Origin: a virus
Strand: one strand, 5' to 3'
Length of the DNA stretch: 64,000 nucleotides
Virus record (IMG/VR): IMGVR_UViG_3300037755_001279
Span: 32,001-96,000 of that record
Below are positions 38,172 to 51,634 of the stretch, piece by piece. The first letter of the stretch is position 1. Every line of letters starts with the position of its first letter. The position numbers and the translations under genes were made by a program. The notes under the pieces are model-generated. The model saw only the letters and a program-made list of their open reading frames with translations, made no database searches and was not told where the DNA came from.

Positions 38172-38889
38172 CGCTCCCAAGCGCCTCATCAAACCGCGCG
38201 GCGCGACGTGGACCGAAGCTGAGGTCGAGTACACGCGCTGCGAGGCGCACGACCTGTACAGTGCCATGGGGATCGTTGCTGGGTTGGAAAAGGCCATCGC
38301 CGCCGCTGCGGTGGCAGCGGGCACGCGCTTCATGAACGGCGATGACCGCGGCGCAGCCGCGCTCCGCGACCACGTCGGGGAACTGCGCAAGATTATCGAC
38401 GAGGCGAACCTCATCGAGTGTCGGGTGCGGTATAAGTACGGTCTGCCTGGCGGTGCGCCGTGACCAAGAAGCTGCCCAAGCCAGGCGACAACCACCGCGC
38501 GGCGTTCACGACACCCAACCACCACACCGAGGCGCGGTACAGCGGCTGGGCTTCGAAAAGCTCGAAGACATGAAGGCGTTGCTGGCTGGCGGCGCCACAC
38601 CCGCTCTGTCAGCTAGCCGCGCTGGCATCCACGTGGTGAGCACCGAAGTCCGCATCGCAGACCCGCTGGATCAGCACAGCTGGGAATGCAGCGCGCGGCT
38701 GCGTCGACGGCCGGGTGTGTGTGTGGCGTCACCACCGGAAACATCGACGTCAGGGGCGACGACACCGCAGCCATCTACGAGGTCGCGCACAACGACGGAA
38801 CCATAGCTTGGTACGACCACGAGGAGCTGACGCCGATCAAAGCGTAAGCGCAACTCACGAAAATCGAACAGACCGGGGGGAATGTTCAC

Positions 38890-40628
38890 ATGATCCACGA
38901 CGATGAAGACCAGAGCGACGGTATTCCGAAGGCGCCGGCACCGCCGGCGATCCGCGGCACACCGACCGACCGGACCATCCGGGCGTTTTCGTTGACGCTG
39001 CCCAGCGGCGGCGTCCCGACGGCTGCACCGACCGCGGCAACGTCGGCCGTGGACATGCCCAACTTTGCTGAAGGCACAGCCGACGGCAACGTAGGCACAG
39101 CGGCCGTGGTTGCCGCTGCCCGCGCGGCCGTCGAAGCGATCACCGCCGACGATCCGACCGGCCTCGTGACGCCCCTCGACGTCGGATACCGCTACATCAT
39201 CTTGCGGCGCGTCGTCGAGCTGATCGTCACCGGCGACGGTGGCGACTGGCGGCCGCTGCGCGCCGTCAACGGGGTGTCCCCTGGCGCAGAGGTGATCGTC
39301 GACCCCGCCGATCACCGCGTCGTCCTGGTGATCATCCGGCGCTGGCGCGATTTCGCTGCCTGGGTGCGCGCGCACGCGCTCGACAACTTCGTCGCGATGA
39401 AGTCGGTCATGGACCCATGGCCGGGCGAGATCAAAAACGGCGCCCGCAGTGTTTTGCGGCGCCTGTCCGAGGCGTGTCACCAACGTCCGGCATGTGAACC
39501 CAACGGTGACGTGCTGCTACGGCTCTGAAAAGGAAACCAATGTCGAACGACTACTTTTTCTACCATGACGATGCCACGAAATCTGAGGCGACGCGGACGG
39601 GGATCGTCGGCGGCGCGCTGTGTTACGCCGGCGGCGCAACGTGCACTAACGGCCTATTTCTCGCCGTGAACGGCAAGACGGTCATCCAGGCCGGCGCGGC
39701 CGTCGTCAACAACCTCGTCGTTGTGTATCGTGACGCTGGCCGGCAGGGCTGGCACATCGCGCGACCCGACGTGCGGTTCGCGGTCGTTCAAGGCAAATAT
39801 GAAAACGAGTGGGCCATCGGCTTCCTCCACGAGGAGAATGCACGGAAATTCGCCAGTGAATTGAACGCGATGCCCGCAGCCGAACGCGATCACGCGCGCC
39901 TGCACCGTGGTTTTTCGACGATCGACTATACCGCACGATGGGCGGTGATCGACCTGCTTGATTTCACGACGCAACAACACGTAGCGACCGCAGCACCGGA
40001 CTGTGCTCCGCGCTATGTCGTCAAGCATCGCGACGAGCTGACACTCGGCGAGCCGTGCGCGCCGTACGGCCTTTCGTTCGGGATCGCTGGGATCCAACAC
40101 GACTGCACCATGTTGAACGCCGGCACCGGACTAGCCTTCGCTGCGTGGGCCGGCCGCAAGCTCTGGGATCACCGCAACGCCTCAAATGTAATGTACGCCA
40201 TCGTCGACACGCACGATGACTGGCATCGGCATCAACGGGCAGGCGTTGGCGTTGGCGCGCAGCTGCTGTCGGCGGTGCCCCGCGGCATCACCGACGCCGA
40301 CGTCTGCACTGCCTGGGTCGCGTTCCAGGCATGGCGTGAGGCGTGCGATATGGCACCGGCGCCTGTCGAGACGCAGCACGTTGACGGGCAGCTCGTGGGC
40401 GTCTACGTCGCCTCGCCTGACTTGCCGACCAAGGTGTTTTTTACCGTCGCGCAGTGCAGCACCGCGTGGACCAACGAGCTGCAGCGCACGCGGCCTGCAC
40501 CGCCGCGGAAGCTGATGGCGCAGATCGATTGCCTCGACGACCACGAGGAAGCCTACATGCCTGACGAGCCTAGCCGGCTCAACGACATGGCATCGCTGGT
40601 GCGCGAGCTGTTCGTGGTGCCGCAGTGA
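38890..40628 (+). other. Two hypothetical genes (38890-39528, 39540-40628)
   Basis: Long ORFs with RBS-like upstream purine runs. Confidence 0.65.
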
Positions 40629-42988: not shown

Positions 42989-43390
42989 AGTTGTCAACGC
43001 ACAGAAACAGGTTGACTGCAACCCTGTATATCAGCGCTCTTGTAGCCTGCGTCGTCGGCATCATCCTGCCGTACATCGTCGTCGTCAAAGAATCCGCACA
43101 CGCAGACCACCTCGCCGCACAAATGGTGCAGATGCGGGACACACGCGCGGTACTTTGTCGTACGGCTGCCGTTCGGCTCGGCACCGGAGCCACGGCCGCG
43201 GCGCTGTTCGAGGCGGCTGCGTACGCGCCCGGTTGCCTCCGCACAGTCCCTGACAGCGTGACGAGCGCGATCAACCAGACGCTGACATCCGCGGAAACAC
43301 CGCAGGTCGCTGTGCGCGCCGCAATGCTAGACTTGCGCGCCGCGTTTGCTGCTGCCGCAGCAGACGGCTGGCCGCTGCCGCCCAAATAAC

Positions 43391-44341
43391 ATGGCCAAGA
43401 CCATCGATCTCCTCGGGCTCGTCAAACGAGCCAACAGCCTGCGCCCCAACACCAAGCGGGCGTACAGCAACGCCGTGCGCCAGTGGATCGACTTCGCCGG
43501 CGACTCACCTGCGGCGTGGACCGTCGAGAATGCGCAGGCGTTCTACGACAAGCTCTTGGCTGACGGCATCGCCGTGGCGACGGCCAACAATATGATCACC
43601 GGCGGCCTGTCATACGTCTTCGGGCGTGCTGCGGCGCTGTACCCGGGCGTTGTCGCCGACATCACCGTCGCCGTTGACCGCGCCAAGGATCTGGACGAGG
43701 ACGCGCGCAGTCGACCGCTCGCGCTTCACGCGCCACAGGCTCAAGCGCTGTTGACCGCCTGCGATGGACCGCGGCTGATCGACATGCGCGACCGCGCCAT
43801 GGCGGTGATCGGGCTGTACACCGGGATGCGCGTGATGTCCTTGGTGGACATCCACACAGATCGCGTCCATCAGCATCACAACTTCGTCCTGATCAGCGTG
43901 GTGCAAAAAGGCGGCAAGCCGTATCGCGTGCCGCTCGACAACCGCGCCTGGGCGCTCACCGAGAATTATCGCAAGTCGCTGCAGCGCACGCGCGGCAATG
44001 CCGGCCCACTCTTTCCTGGGCTGCGATCACAGCTCATCCCGGGCGGCATCACCGAGGTCGTCGGCGAAGGCCTCACCGATAACGGCGCCTACAAGGCGCT
44101 CGCCCGGCGCGCTGACAAGGCGCACCTGAGCCACTTCCACCCGCACTTGTTCCGACACACGTTCGCGACGTGGTGCCGCAGCGCCAAGATCGAGGACTAC
44201 TTGATCGAGGTCGTCACCGGGCACAAGAGCAACCGCGGCCTGGTGCACCGCGTGTACACCGACGAGACGCAGCTGCACGACGAAGTCACGACACGCTGCT
44301 ACGAAGCAATGTCCGCGCGATTGACGGAGCTGAAGCCGTGA
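43391..44341 (+). CDS. Tyrosine recombinase (integrase/Xer family)
   Basis: RPNTKRAY N-domain; RDRAM...YTGMR, QKGGK, HPHLFRHTFAT, TGH, VY catalytic residues. Confidence 0.92.
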   Translation: MAKTIDLLGLVKRANSLRPNTKRAYSNAVRQWIDFAGDSPAAWTVENAQAFYDKLLADGIAVATANNMITGGLSYVFGRAAALYPGVVADITVAVDRAKDLDEDARSRPLALHAPQAQALLTACDGPRLIDMRDRAMAVIGLYTGMRVMSLVDIHTDRVHQHHNFVLISVVQKGGKPYRVPLDNRAWALTENYRKSLQRTRGNAGPLFPGLRSQLIPGGITEVVGEGLTDNGAYKALARRADKAHLSHFHPHLFRHTFATWCRSAKIEDYLIEVVTGHKSNRGLVHRVYTDETQLHDEVTTRCYEAMSARLTELKP

Positions 44342-47957: not shown

Positions 47958-48484
47958 CTGTGCCGCCAGTCGATGGTGCAGCTGACCGCGATCCCTAGTC
48001 CGATGCCGAGGGCGAGTTTGGCGGCGAGTGAGAGATCGAGCGGCCATGTCTCAATGAAATAGGCGAACGAGATCACCACGAGCACGAGAAGCCAATCAAG
48101 AAAGTCGCGTGGCATCGTCACGCCGCCGCCGTTTTGAAATCGGCATCCGACGGCCACGGCGCCCATTGATCACCTTGCAACGCTGACTCCGGGATACCCG
48201 ACACCGGGTGCCACGCCGTCCACACCGCCGGGCCGCGGCTCGCGCGCGAGTAGAACGTCACCAAGCCGTCGCGCAGCACGACGGCGTACTCACGCACTGC
48301 CGACGTGCGGACGGTGGCTGGACATTTGGCTTGTTGGAGAGCCTGGGCGAACGTCATGACGTCTTCACCGTCCCGTGCTCGACCGTTTCGCACCTGAAGT
48401 AGCCGTCGCTGTACAGCCACCAGCAGACGAAGTAGTACCGGCCGCGGCGGATGCCGCTGTCGATCAACGCGCGGCTTGACACAG

Positions 48485-48558
48485 TTGCGGGGACAGGATT
48501 TGAACCTGTGACCTTCGGGATATGAGCCCGACGAGCTACCAGACCGCTCCACCCCGCA
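48485..48558 (-). tRNA. tRNA-Met(CAT), initiator type; no encoded CCA
   Basis: Cloverleaf: acceptor UGCGGGG/CCCCGCA, anticodon stem UCGGG/CCCGA with three consecutive G-C pairs, GGTTCAAATCC T-arm. Confidence 0.92.
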
Positions 48559-48564
48559 GCGAAA

Positions 48565-48888
48565 AATCGTGTGCTCTATGCTGGCTGTCGAAGTTGGCGA
48601 GGCTGCCACCCCTCGCAAGGTCACCGTTCATTCGCGTTATTCAGTCATGCGGTGGACGTCTCCACCAACCCAGGCAGTCACTGGTGTATTTTTTTACCCG
48701 GGGCGCCGGTCTTCGCGGGCCATCGTTCTCACGACCCTTGCGCACCTTACGCTACTAGATTGGCGACCTGCCGCTCAAGATGTCTGAGCGCACCTTCCCC
48801 TCGTGACAGGGGACGTTCGGTCACACCCGCACGCCGAGATTGTTCAAGCCTCGACGGCGTTTCGGCAGCCAGCTCACAGCACACGATT
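48565..48888 (-). ncRNA. Large structured ncRNA (~325 nt), possibly a compact ROOL-like RNA
   Basis: Ends pair (48565-48592 with 48861-48888); several internal hairpins; CTTGAAAACTGAAT at the 5' end; ends 6 nt before tRNA-Met. Confidence 0.7.
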
Positions 48889-48987
48889 CAGTTTTCAAGC
48901 TCGACCTACGGCCCGAGCAAGAGGACCCTCGCATACGCGAACGCCGACGTCAAGCGCCGCGGTCAGGAAGGCGCGCTAGCTTCTGCA

Positions 48988-49134
48988 TCACCGCCGCCGG
49001 CGCCGTCGCCGGCTACCTTGCAAGCGCGGCGAATACGCCGACGCGTTGCGGGCCGCACGGCCGCGCGGGGCCTTCTTGCACTTGCGGCGCTTGGTGGGGT
49101 GCTTGAGTTTGCCGTATCGACAGGAAGTTGCCAT
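48988..49134 (-). CDS. 48-aa protamine-like basic protein (not in ORF track)
   Basis: MATSCRYGKLKHPTKRRKCKKAPRGRAARNASAYSPRLQGSRRRRRRR; ATG 6 nt after TGaTAGGCT. Confidence 0.7.
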   Translation of the reverse strand: MATSCRYGKLKHPTKRRKCKKAPRGRAARNASAYSPRLQGSRRRRRRR

Positions 49135-49138
49135 GGCG

Positions 49139-49573
49139 TCAGCCTATCACAGCCTCGGCGAGCGGGTCTAGCTCTAGCTGTTTCGCGATGTTGCGACGCT
49201 GCTGTTCGTCGGCGGCTGCGTCGAGGACGGCGTAGAACGTGTTGATGTCGGCCTCGTCCCAACGCTCATCGACGCGCAGCTGTAGCGAAGCGAGCGGCAC
49301 CGCGACGACGTCAACCAGGTCTTGGTCAGTGATCACGCGATCGGGCGCGACCTCCAGTTGCCCGATGGACCAGCCGTTGCCGCAGACACCGTTGTACAGC
49401 GGTGAGTAGGTTCCAAAGCCACCGTCGAACGGATCGACGTCGTCTGTAGATAACACCACTGCGTCTCGGTCGAGCGCGTCGTTCGGCGGCAGGTGCAGCA
49501 ACGCGTCATCAACGTCCCGCATGTGCGCTCGGTCGACGTACTGCCGGCGGTGATCATCACGGTTCCAGCTCAC
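49139..49573 (-). CDS. Hypothetical protein, DAAxxEQxRR family
   Basis: C-terminal VLDAAADEQQRR. Confidence 0.65.
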   Translation of the reverse strand: MSWNRDDHRRQYVDRAHMRDVDDALLHLPPNDALDRDAVVLSTDDVDPFDGGFGTYSPLYNGVCGNGWSIGQLEVAPDRVITDQDLVDVVAVPLASLQLRVDERWDEADINTFYAVLDAAADEQQRRNIAKQLELDPLAEAVIG

Positions 49574-49821
49574 GGCGCAGCCTGCCTTGCAGCGTCTCGG
49601 CGCTGTTGTTCGGCTTCGGCAGCGCGTAAGACGCTTGCCATGGCATCGATGTTGCCGCCGACCACGCTCACGGTTTGTTGCAGATCTAGATCAAAATGCT
49701 TGTACAGCCAGCGCACGGACCAGTGCACGCGTTCACCGTCGAATCCATTCGCGTCGTACCCGGGCAGGTCAGGAGGCGCCGCGCCAGTGGGCAGGAACAC
49801 AGGGTATGGCAGGGGCGTCAT
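49570..49821 (-). CDS. Hypothetical protein
   Basis: Coupled ORF ending VLRAAEAEQQRR. Confidence 0.6.
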   Translation of the reverse strand: MTPLPYPVFLPTGAAPPDLPGYDANGFDGERVHWSVRWLYKHFDLDLQQTVSVVGGNIDAMASVLRAAEAEQQRRDAARQAAP

Positions 49822-51572: not shown

Positions 51573-51634
51573 GAGGAAAGCCGGCCTGTCAAGCGCCATC
51601 CTATCATGACGGACCGACGTGGTAGGGTAGATCG

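What the first reader, a model, noticed from the sequence alone, without database searches (positions are those of the whole stretch)
48565..48888. Compact, ornate ncRNA directly upstream of tRNA-fMet (mini-ROOL-like candidate)
Seen: 324 nt closed by 11-bp and 13-bp stems around a 4x4 internal loop. Internal hairpins include ACGCCG/CGGCGU, UCCCCU/AGGGGA, CGCUCA/UGAGCG, GGUGGA/UCCACC and GCGAGG/CCUCGC, joined by A-rich linkers (AAUCUAGUAG, AUACACCAGU, CUGAAUAAC, GAAUGAACGGUG). An rRNA-leader-like CTTGAAAACTGAAT sits at its 5' end, and tRNA-Met begins 6 nt after it, so RNase P could create its 3' end. Established: ROOL (~600 nt) and GOLLD (~800 nt) RNAs occur beside tRNAs in phages and form multimeric cages. 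Inference from memory: the linkers resemble ROOL, so this would be a roughly half-size variant or a new class. The strand is inferred from context.
Basis: partly seen in the sequence, partly recalled or inferred. Interest (0 to 1): 0.8.

Follow-up and report, generated by a model that had tools for sequence, protein, structure and literature searches.

The report
New folded RNA beside phage initiator tRNA
A 324-base gene-free stretch just in front of a phage's initiator tRNA gene is most likely a gene for a tightly folded non-coding RNA of an uncatalogued family that travels with that tRNA as one unit, but its job is unknown.

Summary
It folds far better than shuffles (z -5.97) and ends 6 nt before an initiator-like tRNA-Met (48558-48484). 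It looks non-coding: GC is flat across codon positions and mismatches show no period of three.

I could see one homolog. It lies in a related 124-kb IMG/VR virus (G001; PolA 70% identical) and again sits directly upstream of tRNA-Met, but at a non-syntenic place. RNA plus tRNA therefore behave as one cassette. The RNA is 68% identical, with invariant runs of up to 22 nt, against 56% at PolA third codon positions.

A shared fold is moderately supported: a 23-25 bp terminal rod plus at least seven helices. My model has 16 double compensatory changes in 75 pairs. Controls mostly support it, but several helices seen only in G000 are not conserved.

No Rfam family matches at E<=10, including ROOL, GOLLD and raiA, so "mini-ROOL" is not supported. 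A new family of the tRNA-linked phage ncRNA kind is. No expression data exist. The scan had already flagged the G001 copy (e1-5867196).

The parts
48565..48888 (-). Candidate structured non-coding RNA, 324 nt (RNA position n = window 48889 - n)
   Evidence: Fold z -5.97. Flat GC by codon position. Homolog in G001 with 196 of 289 aligned positions identical. No Rfam match.
48878..48888 (-). P1 5' strand, AAUCGUGUGCU
   Evidence: Pairs perfectly with 48565-48575. 9 of the 11 pairs are identical in G001 and the outer two are lost there.
48565..48575 (-). P1 3' strand, AGCACACGAUU
   Evidence: It is followed by UUUUC in G000 only.
48861..48876 (-). P1b/P2 5' strand of the terminal rod (RNA 13-28)
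   Evidence: Partner is 48580-48592 plus 48577-48579. The sequence differs from G001 (GCUGGCUG against GACGCCG-type) but both pair. There are 5 double compensatory changes in this rod. The 5' alignment was made by hand.
48577..48592 (-). P1b/P2 3' strand of the terminal rod (RNA 297-312)
48828..48859 (-). G000-specific hairpin (RNA 30-61, ACGCCGUCGAG...CUCGGCGU), absent from G001
   Evidence: A 32-33 nt length difference between the two copies lies here. It is an 11-bp hairpin in the G000 MFE.
48788..48824 (-). H1 plus hairpin A (RNA 65-101). Hairpin A, UCCCCU-GUCACG-AGGGGA, lies inside a 22-nt invariant run
   Evidence: H1 has one A-U to G-C double change. Hairpin A is invariant.
48743..48782 (-). 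H2 (RNA 107-146): CAYCUUG pairs with UAAGGUG. Contains the invariant GUAGCGUAAGGUGC
   Evidence: 7 pairs kept in both copies, with one U.G to C-G change. Also found in the independent G001 MFE. It competes with the G000 hairpin CGCUCA/UGAGCG, which has a G.G mismatch in G001.
48704..48742 (-). H3 (RNA 147-185): outer 3 bp, then a 5-bp stem with a bulged A. The loop holds the conserved AGAACGRUGG
   Evidence: Three consecutive double compensatory changes (UCG/CGA to CGA/UCG) and one more in the outer stem.
48669..48702 (-). H4 (RNA 187-220): CCCGGGUA/UGCCUGGG, closing an A-rich loop with the invariant ACCAGUGACU
   Evidence: Present in both MFEs, with a one-nucleotide register slip between the copies.
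48651..48666 (-). H5 (RNA 223-238): GGUGGA-GACG-UCCACC
   Evidence: Same GACG loop in G001. Three double compensatory changes. The two outer pairs are lost in G001.
48617..48648 (-). Conserved unpaired strand (RNA 241-272) with the 17-nt invariant UGACUGAAUAACGCGAA and GACCUU
   Evidence: It is unpaired in the consensus folds. RNAalifold on A3 offers an alternative pairing of its CGCG with YGUG at RNA 64-67.
48597..48616 (-). H6 (RNA 273-292): GCGAGG-GGUGGCAG-CCUCGC
   Evidence: Two adjacent double compensatory changes against G001's GCAGGG...CCCUGC.
48889..48897 (-). Short conserved 5' flank (GAAAACUG in G000, GACAACCG in G001). Similarity to G001 starts here
   Evidence: BLAST piece covering query 104-124. 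Alignments.
48559..48564 (-). 6-nt spacer between RNA and tRNA (8 nt in G001)
48484..48558 (-). tRNA-Met(CAU), initiator-like, no encoded CCA
   Evidence: ARAGORN. Rfam tRNA 63.2 bits. 62 of 75 positions identical to the G001 tRNA, which does encode CCA.

Best explanation
This is a gene for a roughly 300-nt, tightly folded non-coding RNA of an uncatalogued family. A small clade of high-GC viruses from environmental metagenomes carries it fused, as a single cassette, to their initiator-type tRNA-Met.

Proposed mechanism. The RNA is transcribed on the minus strand together with the tRNA, either from an unrecognised promoter or by read-through from the co-oriented upstream genes. RNase P cutting at the tRNA's 5' end leaves the RNA with a 6-8 nt 3' tail. 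The RNA's two ends are locked in a 23-25 bp rod (P1/P2), and this rod may also be an RNase III-type processing site that frees the 5' end. The rod carries a compact multi-helix core whose invariant unpaired strands form the functional surface. The released RNA acts in trans as a stable particle. Its strict linkage to the phage initiator tRNA suggests a role in tRNA or translation-initiation biology during infection.

Shown: non-coding character, conservation above the neutral level, cassette behaviour, and a partly covarying fold on the tRNA's strand. Inferred: transcription, processing, action in trans, and the link to translation.
For: 1. Non-coding. GC by codon position is flat (0.53-0.72) across 48440-48980, while neighbouring genes show one codon position at 0.75-0.93 and another at 0.32-0.50. 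Mismatches to the homolog fall 28/37/28 over the three phases. PolA gives identities of 0.77/0.82/0.56 by codon position. The 224-aa plus-strand ORF across the element has no Pfam hit.

2. Conserved. Only about 34 kb of the 126.5-kb genome aligns to G001 at the nucleotide level, in 68 BLAST pieces of 65-85% identity. The RNA+tRNA block (341 nt, 74.6%) is one of them, and its immediate flanks do not align. Over the RNA, 196 of 289 aligned positions are identical, with invariant runs of 22, 17, 14, 12, 10 and 10 nt.

3. Cassette. In G000 the RNA+tRNA-Met lies between homologs of G001 38.1-38.3 kb and 40.0-40.1 kb. In G001 that slot holds a weak PTH2-like ORF and tRNA-Arg/Ile/Ile, and its own RNA+tRNA-Met lies at 7.57-7.95 kb, syntenic with window about 9.6-10.0 kb.

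4. Fold. z is -5.97 in G000 and -3.33 in G001. RNAalifold on the MAFFT-only alignment gives 62 pairs, 9 of them with both sides changed. On my alignment the consensus energy is -94.8 against -53.7 +/- 5.0 for column shuffles (0 of 200 reach it), with 13 double changes against 6.0 +/- 2.4 (0 of 200). The G001 MFE projected on the MAFFT-only alignment gives 12 doubles against 3.8 +/- 1.7 (0 of 2000). The manual model has 75 pairs: 45 unchanged, 7 one-sided, 16 double and 7 broken in one copy. It reaches 82-83% of each MFE.

5. Strand. Consensus energy is -94.8 (minus) against -75.9 (plus), and in the core -60.7 against -48.2. The model has 7 G.U pairs in each sequence.

6. Copy number. There is a single copy per genome.

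7. Initiator reading (my own, from the sequence plus textbook rules, not a tool result). The anticodon is CAU and the anticodon stem has GGG/CCC. Position 1:72 is A.A in G001 but U-A in G000.
Against: Only two sequences were visible to me, so covariation cannot reach R-scape-type significance.

In the purely MAFFT-aligned core the excess of double changes is weak: 8 against 4.6 +/- 2.0, reached by 17 of 200 shuffles. The energy z there is -3.4, reached by 1 of 200.

The structure taken from G000's own MFE is not better conserved than the null. It gives 4 doubles against 3.2, reached by 759 of 2000, and 24 of 101 pairs are broken.

The five double changes in the terminal rod rest on a 5' alignment that I made by hand with the structure in mind. 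Helices H4 and H5 also needed hand re-registration.

The plus strand also folds significantly.

There is no evidence of transcription. The only run holding the stretch is the DNA sample it may have been assembled from. No sigma-70-like promoter and no canonical copy of the phage's GTCGG-N10-TAnnnT box lies directly upstream. Function is pure inference from linkage.
Confidence: 0.55

Rival explanations
1. It is a cis-acting 5' leader of the tRNA-Met precursor, serving as a stability, timing or processing element, and has no life of its own once RNase P has cut.
For: It is always 6-8 nt upstream of the tRNA and moves with it. No separate promoter or terminator lies between the RNA and the tRNA. 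The other tRNAs of these genomes lack it, so it is specific to the initiator tRNA.
Against: About 300 nt, at least seven helices and invariant unpaired runs of 14-22 nt are far more than any described tRNA leader needs (from my own knowledge). A closed terminal rod that brings the 5' and 3' ends together looks like a design for a stable excised molecule. This is an argument, not a test.
Confidence: 0.15
2. It works at the DNA level, for example as a terminal-inverted-repeat mobile element (MITE-like), an attachment site for the phage integrase, or a replication or packaging origin rich in hairpins.
For: It has perfect 11-bp terminal inverted repeats. Both strands fold significantly. The module sits at different places in the two genomes. 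A tyrosine integrase lies about 4 kb away in G000 (window 43346-44341), and integrases often use tRNA genes (from my own knowledge).
Against: There is one copy per genome, and I saw no target-site duplication at the repeat ends. The unit that moved includes the tRNA, which lies outside the inverted repeats. The consensus fold is clearly better on the tRNA's strand, and the model has 7 G.U pairs per copy, which would be C.A mismatches on the other strand. Compensatory changes inside internal hairpins are not expected for protein-binding double-stranded DNA sites. In G001 the integrase homolog (about 26.9-27.5 kb) is 19 kb from the module.
Confidence: 0.07
3. It has no function of its own. It is a GC-rich spacer that folds by composition and looks conserved only because it hitch-hiked with the tRNA in a recent transfer, or because it hides a very small ORF.
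For: There are only two sequences. The G000-MFE test is not significant. A mini-ORF with an upstream AAGGUG is shared: G000 MRTMAREDRRPG* and G001 MRTVVRREKRPGGKIYYQ*, starting at RNA 157 (G000) and 124 (G001). This is my own reading of the sequences.
Against: Divergence of the RNA (68%) and of the tRNA (62 of 75) is in line with the genome-wide divergence of conserved genes (65-85%). That argues against a recent transfer. Over the same time PolA third positions fell to 56% and the immediate flanks became unalignable. Folds beat dinucleotide shuffles in both copies. In the 13 codon positions compared in the mini-ORF, differences fall 6/4/3 over codon positions 1/2/3 and the stop is not conserved (my count). 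That does not look like a coding pattern.
Confidence: 0.1
4. It is a strongly diverged or truncated member of ROOL or GOLLD, the first reader's 'mini-ROOL'.
For: The genomic habit is the same: phage-borne and next to tRNAs. ROOL and GOLLD are described as often lying near tRNAs in phages and prophages, and one GOLLD lies downstream of a Met-tRNA (passages read in PMC5737381, and bioRxiv 10.1101/2024.12.08.627333).
Against: Neither copy gave a cmscan match to either family at E<=10, even with the laxest filters on 321-346 nt. Its 291-324 nt compare with an average of 581 nt for ROOL and more than 800 nt for many GOLLD members.
Confidence: 0.03

Closest known systems
ROOL RNA (Rfam; Weinberg et al. 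2017, PMC5737381, passages read)
   Same: A structured ('ornate') non-coding RNA carried by phages and prophages, often next to tRNA genes, with unknown function and no known protein partner.
   Different: No covariance-model match. It is about half the size, 291-324 nt against an average of 581 nt. [quoted passage not shown] ROOL is widespread over three phyla, whereas this RNA was seen in two viruses. Cage formation is untested.
GOLLD RNA (Rfam; passages of bioRxiv 10.1101/2024.12.08.627333 read)
   Same: Encoded by phages and prophages near tRNA islands. tRNAs are sometimes physically linked to GOLLD, and one studied member lies next to a Met-tRNA.
   Different: No covariance-model match. 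Many GOLLD members exceed 800 nt. The cited GOLLD lies downstream of the Met-tRNA, whereas this RNA lies upstream.
Phage T4 RNAC and RNAD (review PMC3014915, one passage read)
   Same: Small stable RNAs of unknown role transcribed from a phage tRNA region. Processing out of tRNA precursor transcripts is recalled from older literature, not read here.
   Different: They are much smaller (recalled). They come from an unrelated phage and host. No sequence comparison was possible because no T4 sequence was fetched.
rRNA precursor processing stems and phage T7 RNase III sites (recalled textbook knowledge, no paper read)
   Same: A long double-stranded rod with internal mismatches, formed by the sequences flanking a structured RNA, which is the architecture RNase III uses to excise RNAs from longer transcripts. 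This is only a mechanistic analogy for how the 5' end could be made.
   Different: No RNase III site can be predicted from sequence, and nothing was tested.

Membership tests
ROOL (Rfam) | Match to the family covariance model | tested here: not met
   No hit at gathering score on the whole window. No hit at E<=10 on 901 nt or 346 nt of G000, or on 321 nt of G001.
ROOL (Rfam) | [quoted passage not shown] | tested here: not met
   The element is 324 nt in G000 and 291 nt in G001. The consensus has a main multi-helix junction, and H1 (enclosing hairpin A) and H2 form smaller ones. No pseudoknot has covariation support.
ROOL / GOLLD | Located in phages or prophages near tRNA genes | tested here: met
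   It lies in a 126.5-kb virus record, 6 nt upstream of tRNA-Met. This is a habit, not a membership criterion.
ROOL / GOLLD | Assembly into homo-oligomeric RNA cages | not testable with these tools
   Needs in vitro transcription followed by SEC, native gel or cryo-EM.
GOLLD (Rfam) | Match to the family covariance model; conserved 3' domain; many members over 800 nt | tested here: not met
   No hit. Length is 291-324 nt.
raiA RNA (Rfam) | Match to the family covariance model | tested here: not met
   No hit.
Any other Rfam 15 family (RNase P RNA, tmRNA, group I/II introns, 6S, HEARO, riboswitches and others) | Match at E<=10 | tested here: not met
   Only noise overlaps the element: manA 10.7 bits at E 2.1 on G000 (gathering score 55.2), radC 12.6 bits at E 8.4 and sR19 11 bits at E 8 on the plus strand, and ClpQY_promoter 11 bits at E 5.4 on G001. 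ARAGORN found no tmRNA.
Bacterial initiator tRNA (the neighbouring gene) | CAU anticodon; three G-C pairs at the base of the anticodon stem; unpaired 1:72 (textbook rules, recalled) | tested here: inconclusive
   CAU is present. GGG/CCC is read in both copies. Position 1:72 is A.A in G001 but a pairable U-A in G000.
MITE-like inverted-repeat element | Multiple copies and target-site duplications | tested here: not met
   Single copy in G000 and in G001. No duplicated bases flank the 11-bp repeats.
Protein-coding gene | Codon-position bias and three-base periodicity of substitutions | tested here: not met
   GC per codon position is flat. Mismatches fall 28/37/28. The sense strand has 4-6 stops in every frame. 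The antisense 224-aa ORF has no Pfam hit and is interrupted in G001.

The most novel reading that the evidence does not exclude
This is a new class of about 300-nt ornate phage RNA that forms a mobile two-gene RNA cassette with the phage's own initiator tRNA. After excision it would build an RNA-only or RNA-protein particle that acts on translation initiation. It might, for example, hold or deliver the phage initiator tRNA, or engage the small ribosomal subunit through its invariant AAGGUG / CCUU-type strands. That would make it a smaller functional cousin of the ROOL and GOLLD cages, with a direct and testable link to a specific tRNA.
Probability: 0.15. Interest if true: 0.75.

Novelty: new variant of a known kind. 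Interest (0 to 1): 0.5.

Why it matters
Large folded RNAs next to phage tRNA genes (ROOL, GOLLD, T4 RNAC/RNAD) are a recurring puzzle, and none has a known function. This one is compact, at about 300 nt. It is tied to one particular tRNA, the initiator, so tightly that the pair moved together between genome positions. That gives a concrete handle, translation initiation or tRNA maturation, which the larger RNAs lack. Its size also suits chemical probing and cryo-EM. If it is real, it adds a new family to the short list of ornate phage RNAs, from an almost unsampled clade of 124-127 kb high-GC environmental viruses. It would also strengthen the idea that phages pair structured RNAs with tRNAs for a common purpose.

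Tried and rejected
**Rfam.** The search was run four ways and found nothing but noise.

**Search for more homologs**
- blastn 'distant' against 50,697 GenBank phage records matched 86 records. In none did a match cover 80% or more of the query. The 30 rows shown (12-14% coverage) matched only the tRNA part.
- tblastn of the 607-aa neighbour found no match.
- The search for related loci with the 144-aa neighbour found no relative.
- The search for homologous proteins with the same protein found only the window's own protein, in the near-length band searched, 79-252 aa.
- PolA searches found 4 contigs (G001-G004). Only G001 is long, and the three short ones (5.7-12.5 kb) hold no copy.
- Six viral contigs pattern scans found only G001, plus two chance hits in coding DNA of low-GC phages.
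- One metagenome-contig scan gave 2 chance hits in AT-rich coding DNA.
- One genome-contig scan gave 1 chance hit, at the C-terminus of what reads as a PD40-type repeat protein in an Acidobacteriaceae MAG. That reading is my own.
- nhmmer --max over both genomes found no paralog.
- The earlier scan note e1-5867196 speaks of three phages. I could see two. A third may be hidden as 'very near' my own record or lie in a collection whose cap I had used.

**Expression.** The look-up of sequencing runs listed 7 runs. Only one, the possible source DNA sample, holds the stretch. Five are on record as RNA and a sixth is guessed RNA; each shares 0.06 of the words. Laying four runs showed the three RNA runs covering only 48484-48567, that is other organisms' initiator tRNAs. 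This says nothing for or against transcription of the element.

**Promoters.** The sigma-70 scan found 0 sites in 48000-49700. The phage's own GTCGG-N10-TAnnnT box occurs 22 times at spacing 10 against 0-3 at spacings 8, 9, 11 and 12. It has no canonical copy directly upstream. The nearest on the minus strand is at 51618, and an off-spacing GTCGG-N8-TATGCG lies at 48948.

**Helices seen only in G000.** The G000 MFE as a whole is not conserved in G001, with 24 of 101 pairs broken. I dropped CGCUCA/UGAGCG and the long-range AGGUCGCC/GGUGACCU from the consensus.

**Other ideas**
- A kissing pair GUCAC (loop of hairpin A) with GUGAC (loop of H4), and AAGGU with ACCUU, are possible. Both are invariant, so they are unsupported.
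- T-box, hammerhead, RNase P, tmRNA and group I resemblances that came to mind were not borne out by Rfam.
- The U-run after P1 in G000, which would make it terminator-like, is absent in G001.
- I did not build a covariance model. A full-length model would exceed the calibration limit, and no unsearched sequence was available to scan with it.
Full report
**What is there**

On the minus strand, window 48888->48565 reads as 324 nt. It begins AAUCGUGUGCU and ends AGCACACGAUU, an 11-bp closing stem. After a 4x4 internal loop comes a second stem of 13 positions (12 pairs and one C.A).

ARAGORN and Rfam place tRNA-Met(CAU) at 48558-48484 on the same strand, 6 nt downstream. Judged from the sequence by textbook rules that I recall, the tRNA looks like an initiator. 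It has GGG/CCC in the anticodon stem. Its 1:72 position, however, is a pairable U-A here and A.A in the relative.

The element folds at -148 kcal/mol against -117.1 +/- 5.2 for dinucleotide shuffles, z -5.97, with 0 of 100 shuffles as good. The opposite strand also folds well (z -5.49).

**Context**

The window is part of a 126,509-base IMG/VR virus record, G000, which CheckV rates 98% complete. Its GC content is about 66%. It has a family-A DNA polymerase with an N-terminal UDG-like domain, ThyX, an SNF2 helicase, a tyrosine integrase, and six tRNAs by ARAGORN, one of them a doubtful 98-nt call.

The stretch 48440-48980 shows no codon-position GC bias (0.53-0.72 in all three phases). Neighbouring genes show one codon position at 0.75-0.93 and another at 0.32-0.50. 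The sense strand has 4-6 stops in each frame. A 224-aa ORF is open on the antisense strand, but it has no Pfam hit and its counterpart in the relative is interrupted.

**Relatives**

The neighbouring proteins are orphans. Using PolA as a probe I found four related IMG/VR contigs. Only one is long: G001, 123,913 bases, with PolA 70% identical.

G001 holds a 291-nt homolog of the element, again directly upstream (8 nt) of a tRNA-Met(CAU) on the same strand. The three short contigs hold none. Nothing else turned up in:
- six viral pattern scans;
- one metagenome scan;
- one genome-contig scan;
- a GenBank phage BLAST;
- the run index.

Every other hit was a chance match in coding DNA. Each genome has one copy.

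It reports the family in three phages. I could see two.

**Conservation**

Only about 34 kb of G000 aligns to G001 at the nucleotide level, in 68 pieces of 65-85% identity. The RNA+tRNA block is one of these pieces (341 nt at 74.6%). Similarity starts about 8 nt before P1 and stops at the tRNA's 3' end, and the flanks are unalignable.

Over the RNA, 196 of 289 aligned positions are identical, with invariant runs of 22, 17, 14, 12, 10 and 10 nt. The tRNAs share 62 of 75 positions. Mismatches show no three-base period (28/37/28). PolA, the best-conserved gene, has identities of 0.77/0.82/0.56 at codon positions 1/2/3. The element is thus kept well above the near-neutral level without being coding.

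**A cassette**

The two copies are not syntenic. G000's copy lies between homologs of G001 38.06-38.27 kb and 40.00-40.13 kb. In G001 that slot carries a weak PTH2-like ORF (21 bits, below the cut-off of 23) and tRNA-Arg, Ile and Ile.

G001's copy lies between an XRE-like gene and the homolog of G000's 121-aa gene. In G000 the matching place, about window 9.6-10.0 kb, has no such insert. RNA and tRNA-Met have therefore stayed together while changing place. In both genomes they sit downstream of a co-oriented gene.

**Fold**

The independent MFEs of the two copies share these features:
- the terminal rod;
- hairpin A (UCCCCU/AGGGGA);
- H4 (CCCGGG.../...CCUGGG around an A-rich loop with ACCAGUGACU);
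- H5 (GACG loop);
- H6.

RNAalifold on the MAFFT-only alignment predicts 62 pairs, 9 of them with both sides changed.

With a 5' alignment that I corrected by hand, G000 carries an extra 32-nt hairpin at RNA 30-61. On that alignment the consensus energy is -94.8 kcal/mol against -53.7 +/- 5.0 for 200 column shuffles, and none reaches it. It contains 13 double compensatory pairs against 6.0 +/- 2.4, again reached by none.

My helix-by-helix model has 75 homologous pairs: 45 unchanged, 7 changed on one side, 16 changed on both sides and 7 broken in one copy. The clearest cases are:
- H3: UCG/CGA becomes CGA/UCG, three pairs in a row;
- H5: three doubles under the same GACG loop;
- H6: two adjacent doubles;
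- the terminal rod: five doubles, where GCUGGCUG/CAGCCAGC is replaced by a GACGCCG/CGGCGUC-type stem.

The model reaches -123.0 and -106.1 kcal/mol, which is 82-83% of the respective MFEs.

**Controls that temper this**

In the core that MAFFT aligns without my help, the energy z is -3.4 (1 of 200 shuffles reach it). The excess of doubles there is weak: 8 against 4.6 +/- 2.0, reached by 17 of 200.

The G001 MFE projected on the MAFFT-only alignment gives 12 doubles against a null of 3.8 +/- 1.7 (0 of 2000). The G000 MFE gives only 4 against 3.2 (759 of 2000), with 24 of 101 pairs broken.

Several G000 helices are therefore not conserved, among them CGCUCA/UGAGCG and a long-range AGGUCGCC/GGUGACCU. 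H4 and H5 needed hand re-registration. With two sequences the fold is supported but not proven.

**Strand**

The consensus fold is better on the tRNA's strand: -94.8 against -75.9 for the whole, and -60.7 against -48.2 for the core. The model holds 7 G.U pairs in each copy. This argues for an RNA read in the tRNA's direction rather than for a DNA cruciform.

**What it is not**

cmscan against the 4227 families of Rfam 15 finds nothing but the tRNA at gathering score. At E<=10, on either copy, it finds only noise. There is no ROOL, GOLLD, raiA, RNase P, tmRNA, intron or riboswitch.

[quoted passage not shown] Many GOLLD members exceed 800 nt (bioRxiv 10.1101/2024.12.08.627333, passages). Only the habit is shared: phage-borne and beside tRNAs. 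The 'mini-ROOL' reading fails its membership test. 'Works like ROOL or GOLLD' remains open and untested.

**How it most likely works**

The most economical reading has five steps.
1. The RNA and the tRNA are made as one minus-strand transcript. No sigma-70-like promoter lies within 48000-49700.
2. The virus's own box, GTCGG-N10-TAnnnT, occurs 22 times at spacing 10 against 0-3 at other spacings. It has no canonical copy just upstream, and the nearest on this strand is at 51618. Read-through from the upstream gene block is therefore plausible.
3. RNase P then defines the RNA's 3' end, 6-8 nt after P1.
4. The 23-25 bp rod formed by the two ends protects them. By analogy with rRNA precursors and T7 RNase III sites (recalled), it may also be where the 5' end is cut.
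5. The invariant unpaired strands (GUAGCGUAAGGUGC, AGAACGRUGG, ACCAGUGACU, UGACUGAAUAACGCGAA, GACCUU) would form the active or binding surface of a stable trans-acting RNA.

Its exclusive linkage to the initiator tRNA points to translation initiation or tRNA biology. All five steps are inference, and no expression data exist. The only run holding the stretch is the possible source DNA sample, and the three RNA runs I laid cover only the tRNA part.

**Rivals**
- A purely cis-acting tRNA leader (0.15).
- A DNA-level element such as a TIR element, att site or origin (0.07).
- A functionless spacer or a hidden mini-ORF (0.10). A shared 12-18 codon frame after an AAGGUG exists, but its substitutions fall 6/4/3 over codon positions and its stop is not conserved.
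- A diverged ROOL or GOLLD (0.03).

**Verdict**

This is a real and probably functional structured non-coding RNA of an uncatalogued family. [quoted passage not shown] It is notable for its compactness and for its cassette-like coupling to the initiator tRNA. The family is tiny, with two copies seen here, so both fold and function need more sequences and experiments.

No paper describing it turned up in three full-text searches. All three were by topic (ROOL/GOLLD/tRNA/phage; T4 rnaC/rnaD; initiator tRNA/phage-encoded/structured RNA/RNase P), none by sequence. They do not show that it is unpublished.

Noticed in passing
whole G000; e.g. window 7494(+), 47582(+), 47592(-), 51618(-), 53468(-), 53475(+): The motif GTCGG-N10-TAnnnT occurs 22 times in G000 at spacing exactly 10, against 0, 1, 1 and 3 times at spacings 8, 9, 11 and 12. 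G001 has 7 copies at spacing 10. Most carry TG before the -10-like box. It looks like a virus-specific promoter class, as earlier notes of the scan proposed.
   Followed up: partly
G001 38720-39400 (L035 18720-19399, minus strand): The slot syntenic to G000's RNA+tRNA-Met cassette holds tRNA-Arg(TCT), two ARAGORN calls of tRNA-Ile(AAT) and a 119-aa ORF. The ORF has a weak PTH2 peptidyl-tRNA hydrolase match (E 4e-4, 21 bits, below the cut-off of 23). This looks like a variable 'tRNA island' at a fixed genome position.
   Followed up: partly
G000 99300-102062 (outside the window; L004): The family-A DNA polymerase carries an N-terminal uracil-DNA-glycosylase-superfamily domain (PF03167, E 5e-16). 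The fusion is kept at 68-76% identity in four IMG/VR contigs.
   Followed up: no
window 48696-48733 (RNA 156-193), minus strand: A shared mini-frame follows a conserved UAAGGUG. It reads GUG/AUG-AGA-ACG..., giving MRTMAREDRRPG* in G000 and MRTVVRREKRPGGKIYYQ* in G001. Substitutions are not third-position biased and the stop is not conserved, so it is probably a by-product of helix H3. It is worth a look if ribosome profiling ever exists.
   Followed up: partly
window 48484-48558 against L016 1499-1575: The G001 initiator-like tRNA encodes its CCA end and has an A.A 1:72 mismatch. The G000 copy lacks CCA and has U1-A72. The two tRNAs also show compensatory changes in the acceptor and T stems.
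   Followed up: no
L016 1895-1945 (G001, minus strand), just upstream of the G001 RNA: A 12-bp GC-rich hairpin (CCCCGGCGUCCC...GGGGGACGCCGGGG) without a U-tract sits about 20 nt before the G001 copy. It has no counterpart in G000. It could be the end of the upstream gene's transcript or an extra structure.
   Followed up: no
G000 120206-120303 (outside the window): ARAGORN calls a 98-nt 'tRNA-Pro(AGG)' on the minus strand. That is unusually long for a tRNA.
   Followed up: no
window 48988-49134 (minus strand): A 48-aa arginine-rich ORF ending in RRRRRRR lies directly upstream of the cassette. It is one of the few neighbours conserved in G001, at 78% nucleotide identity (G001 40002-40130).
   Followed up: no
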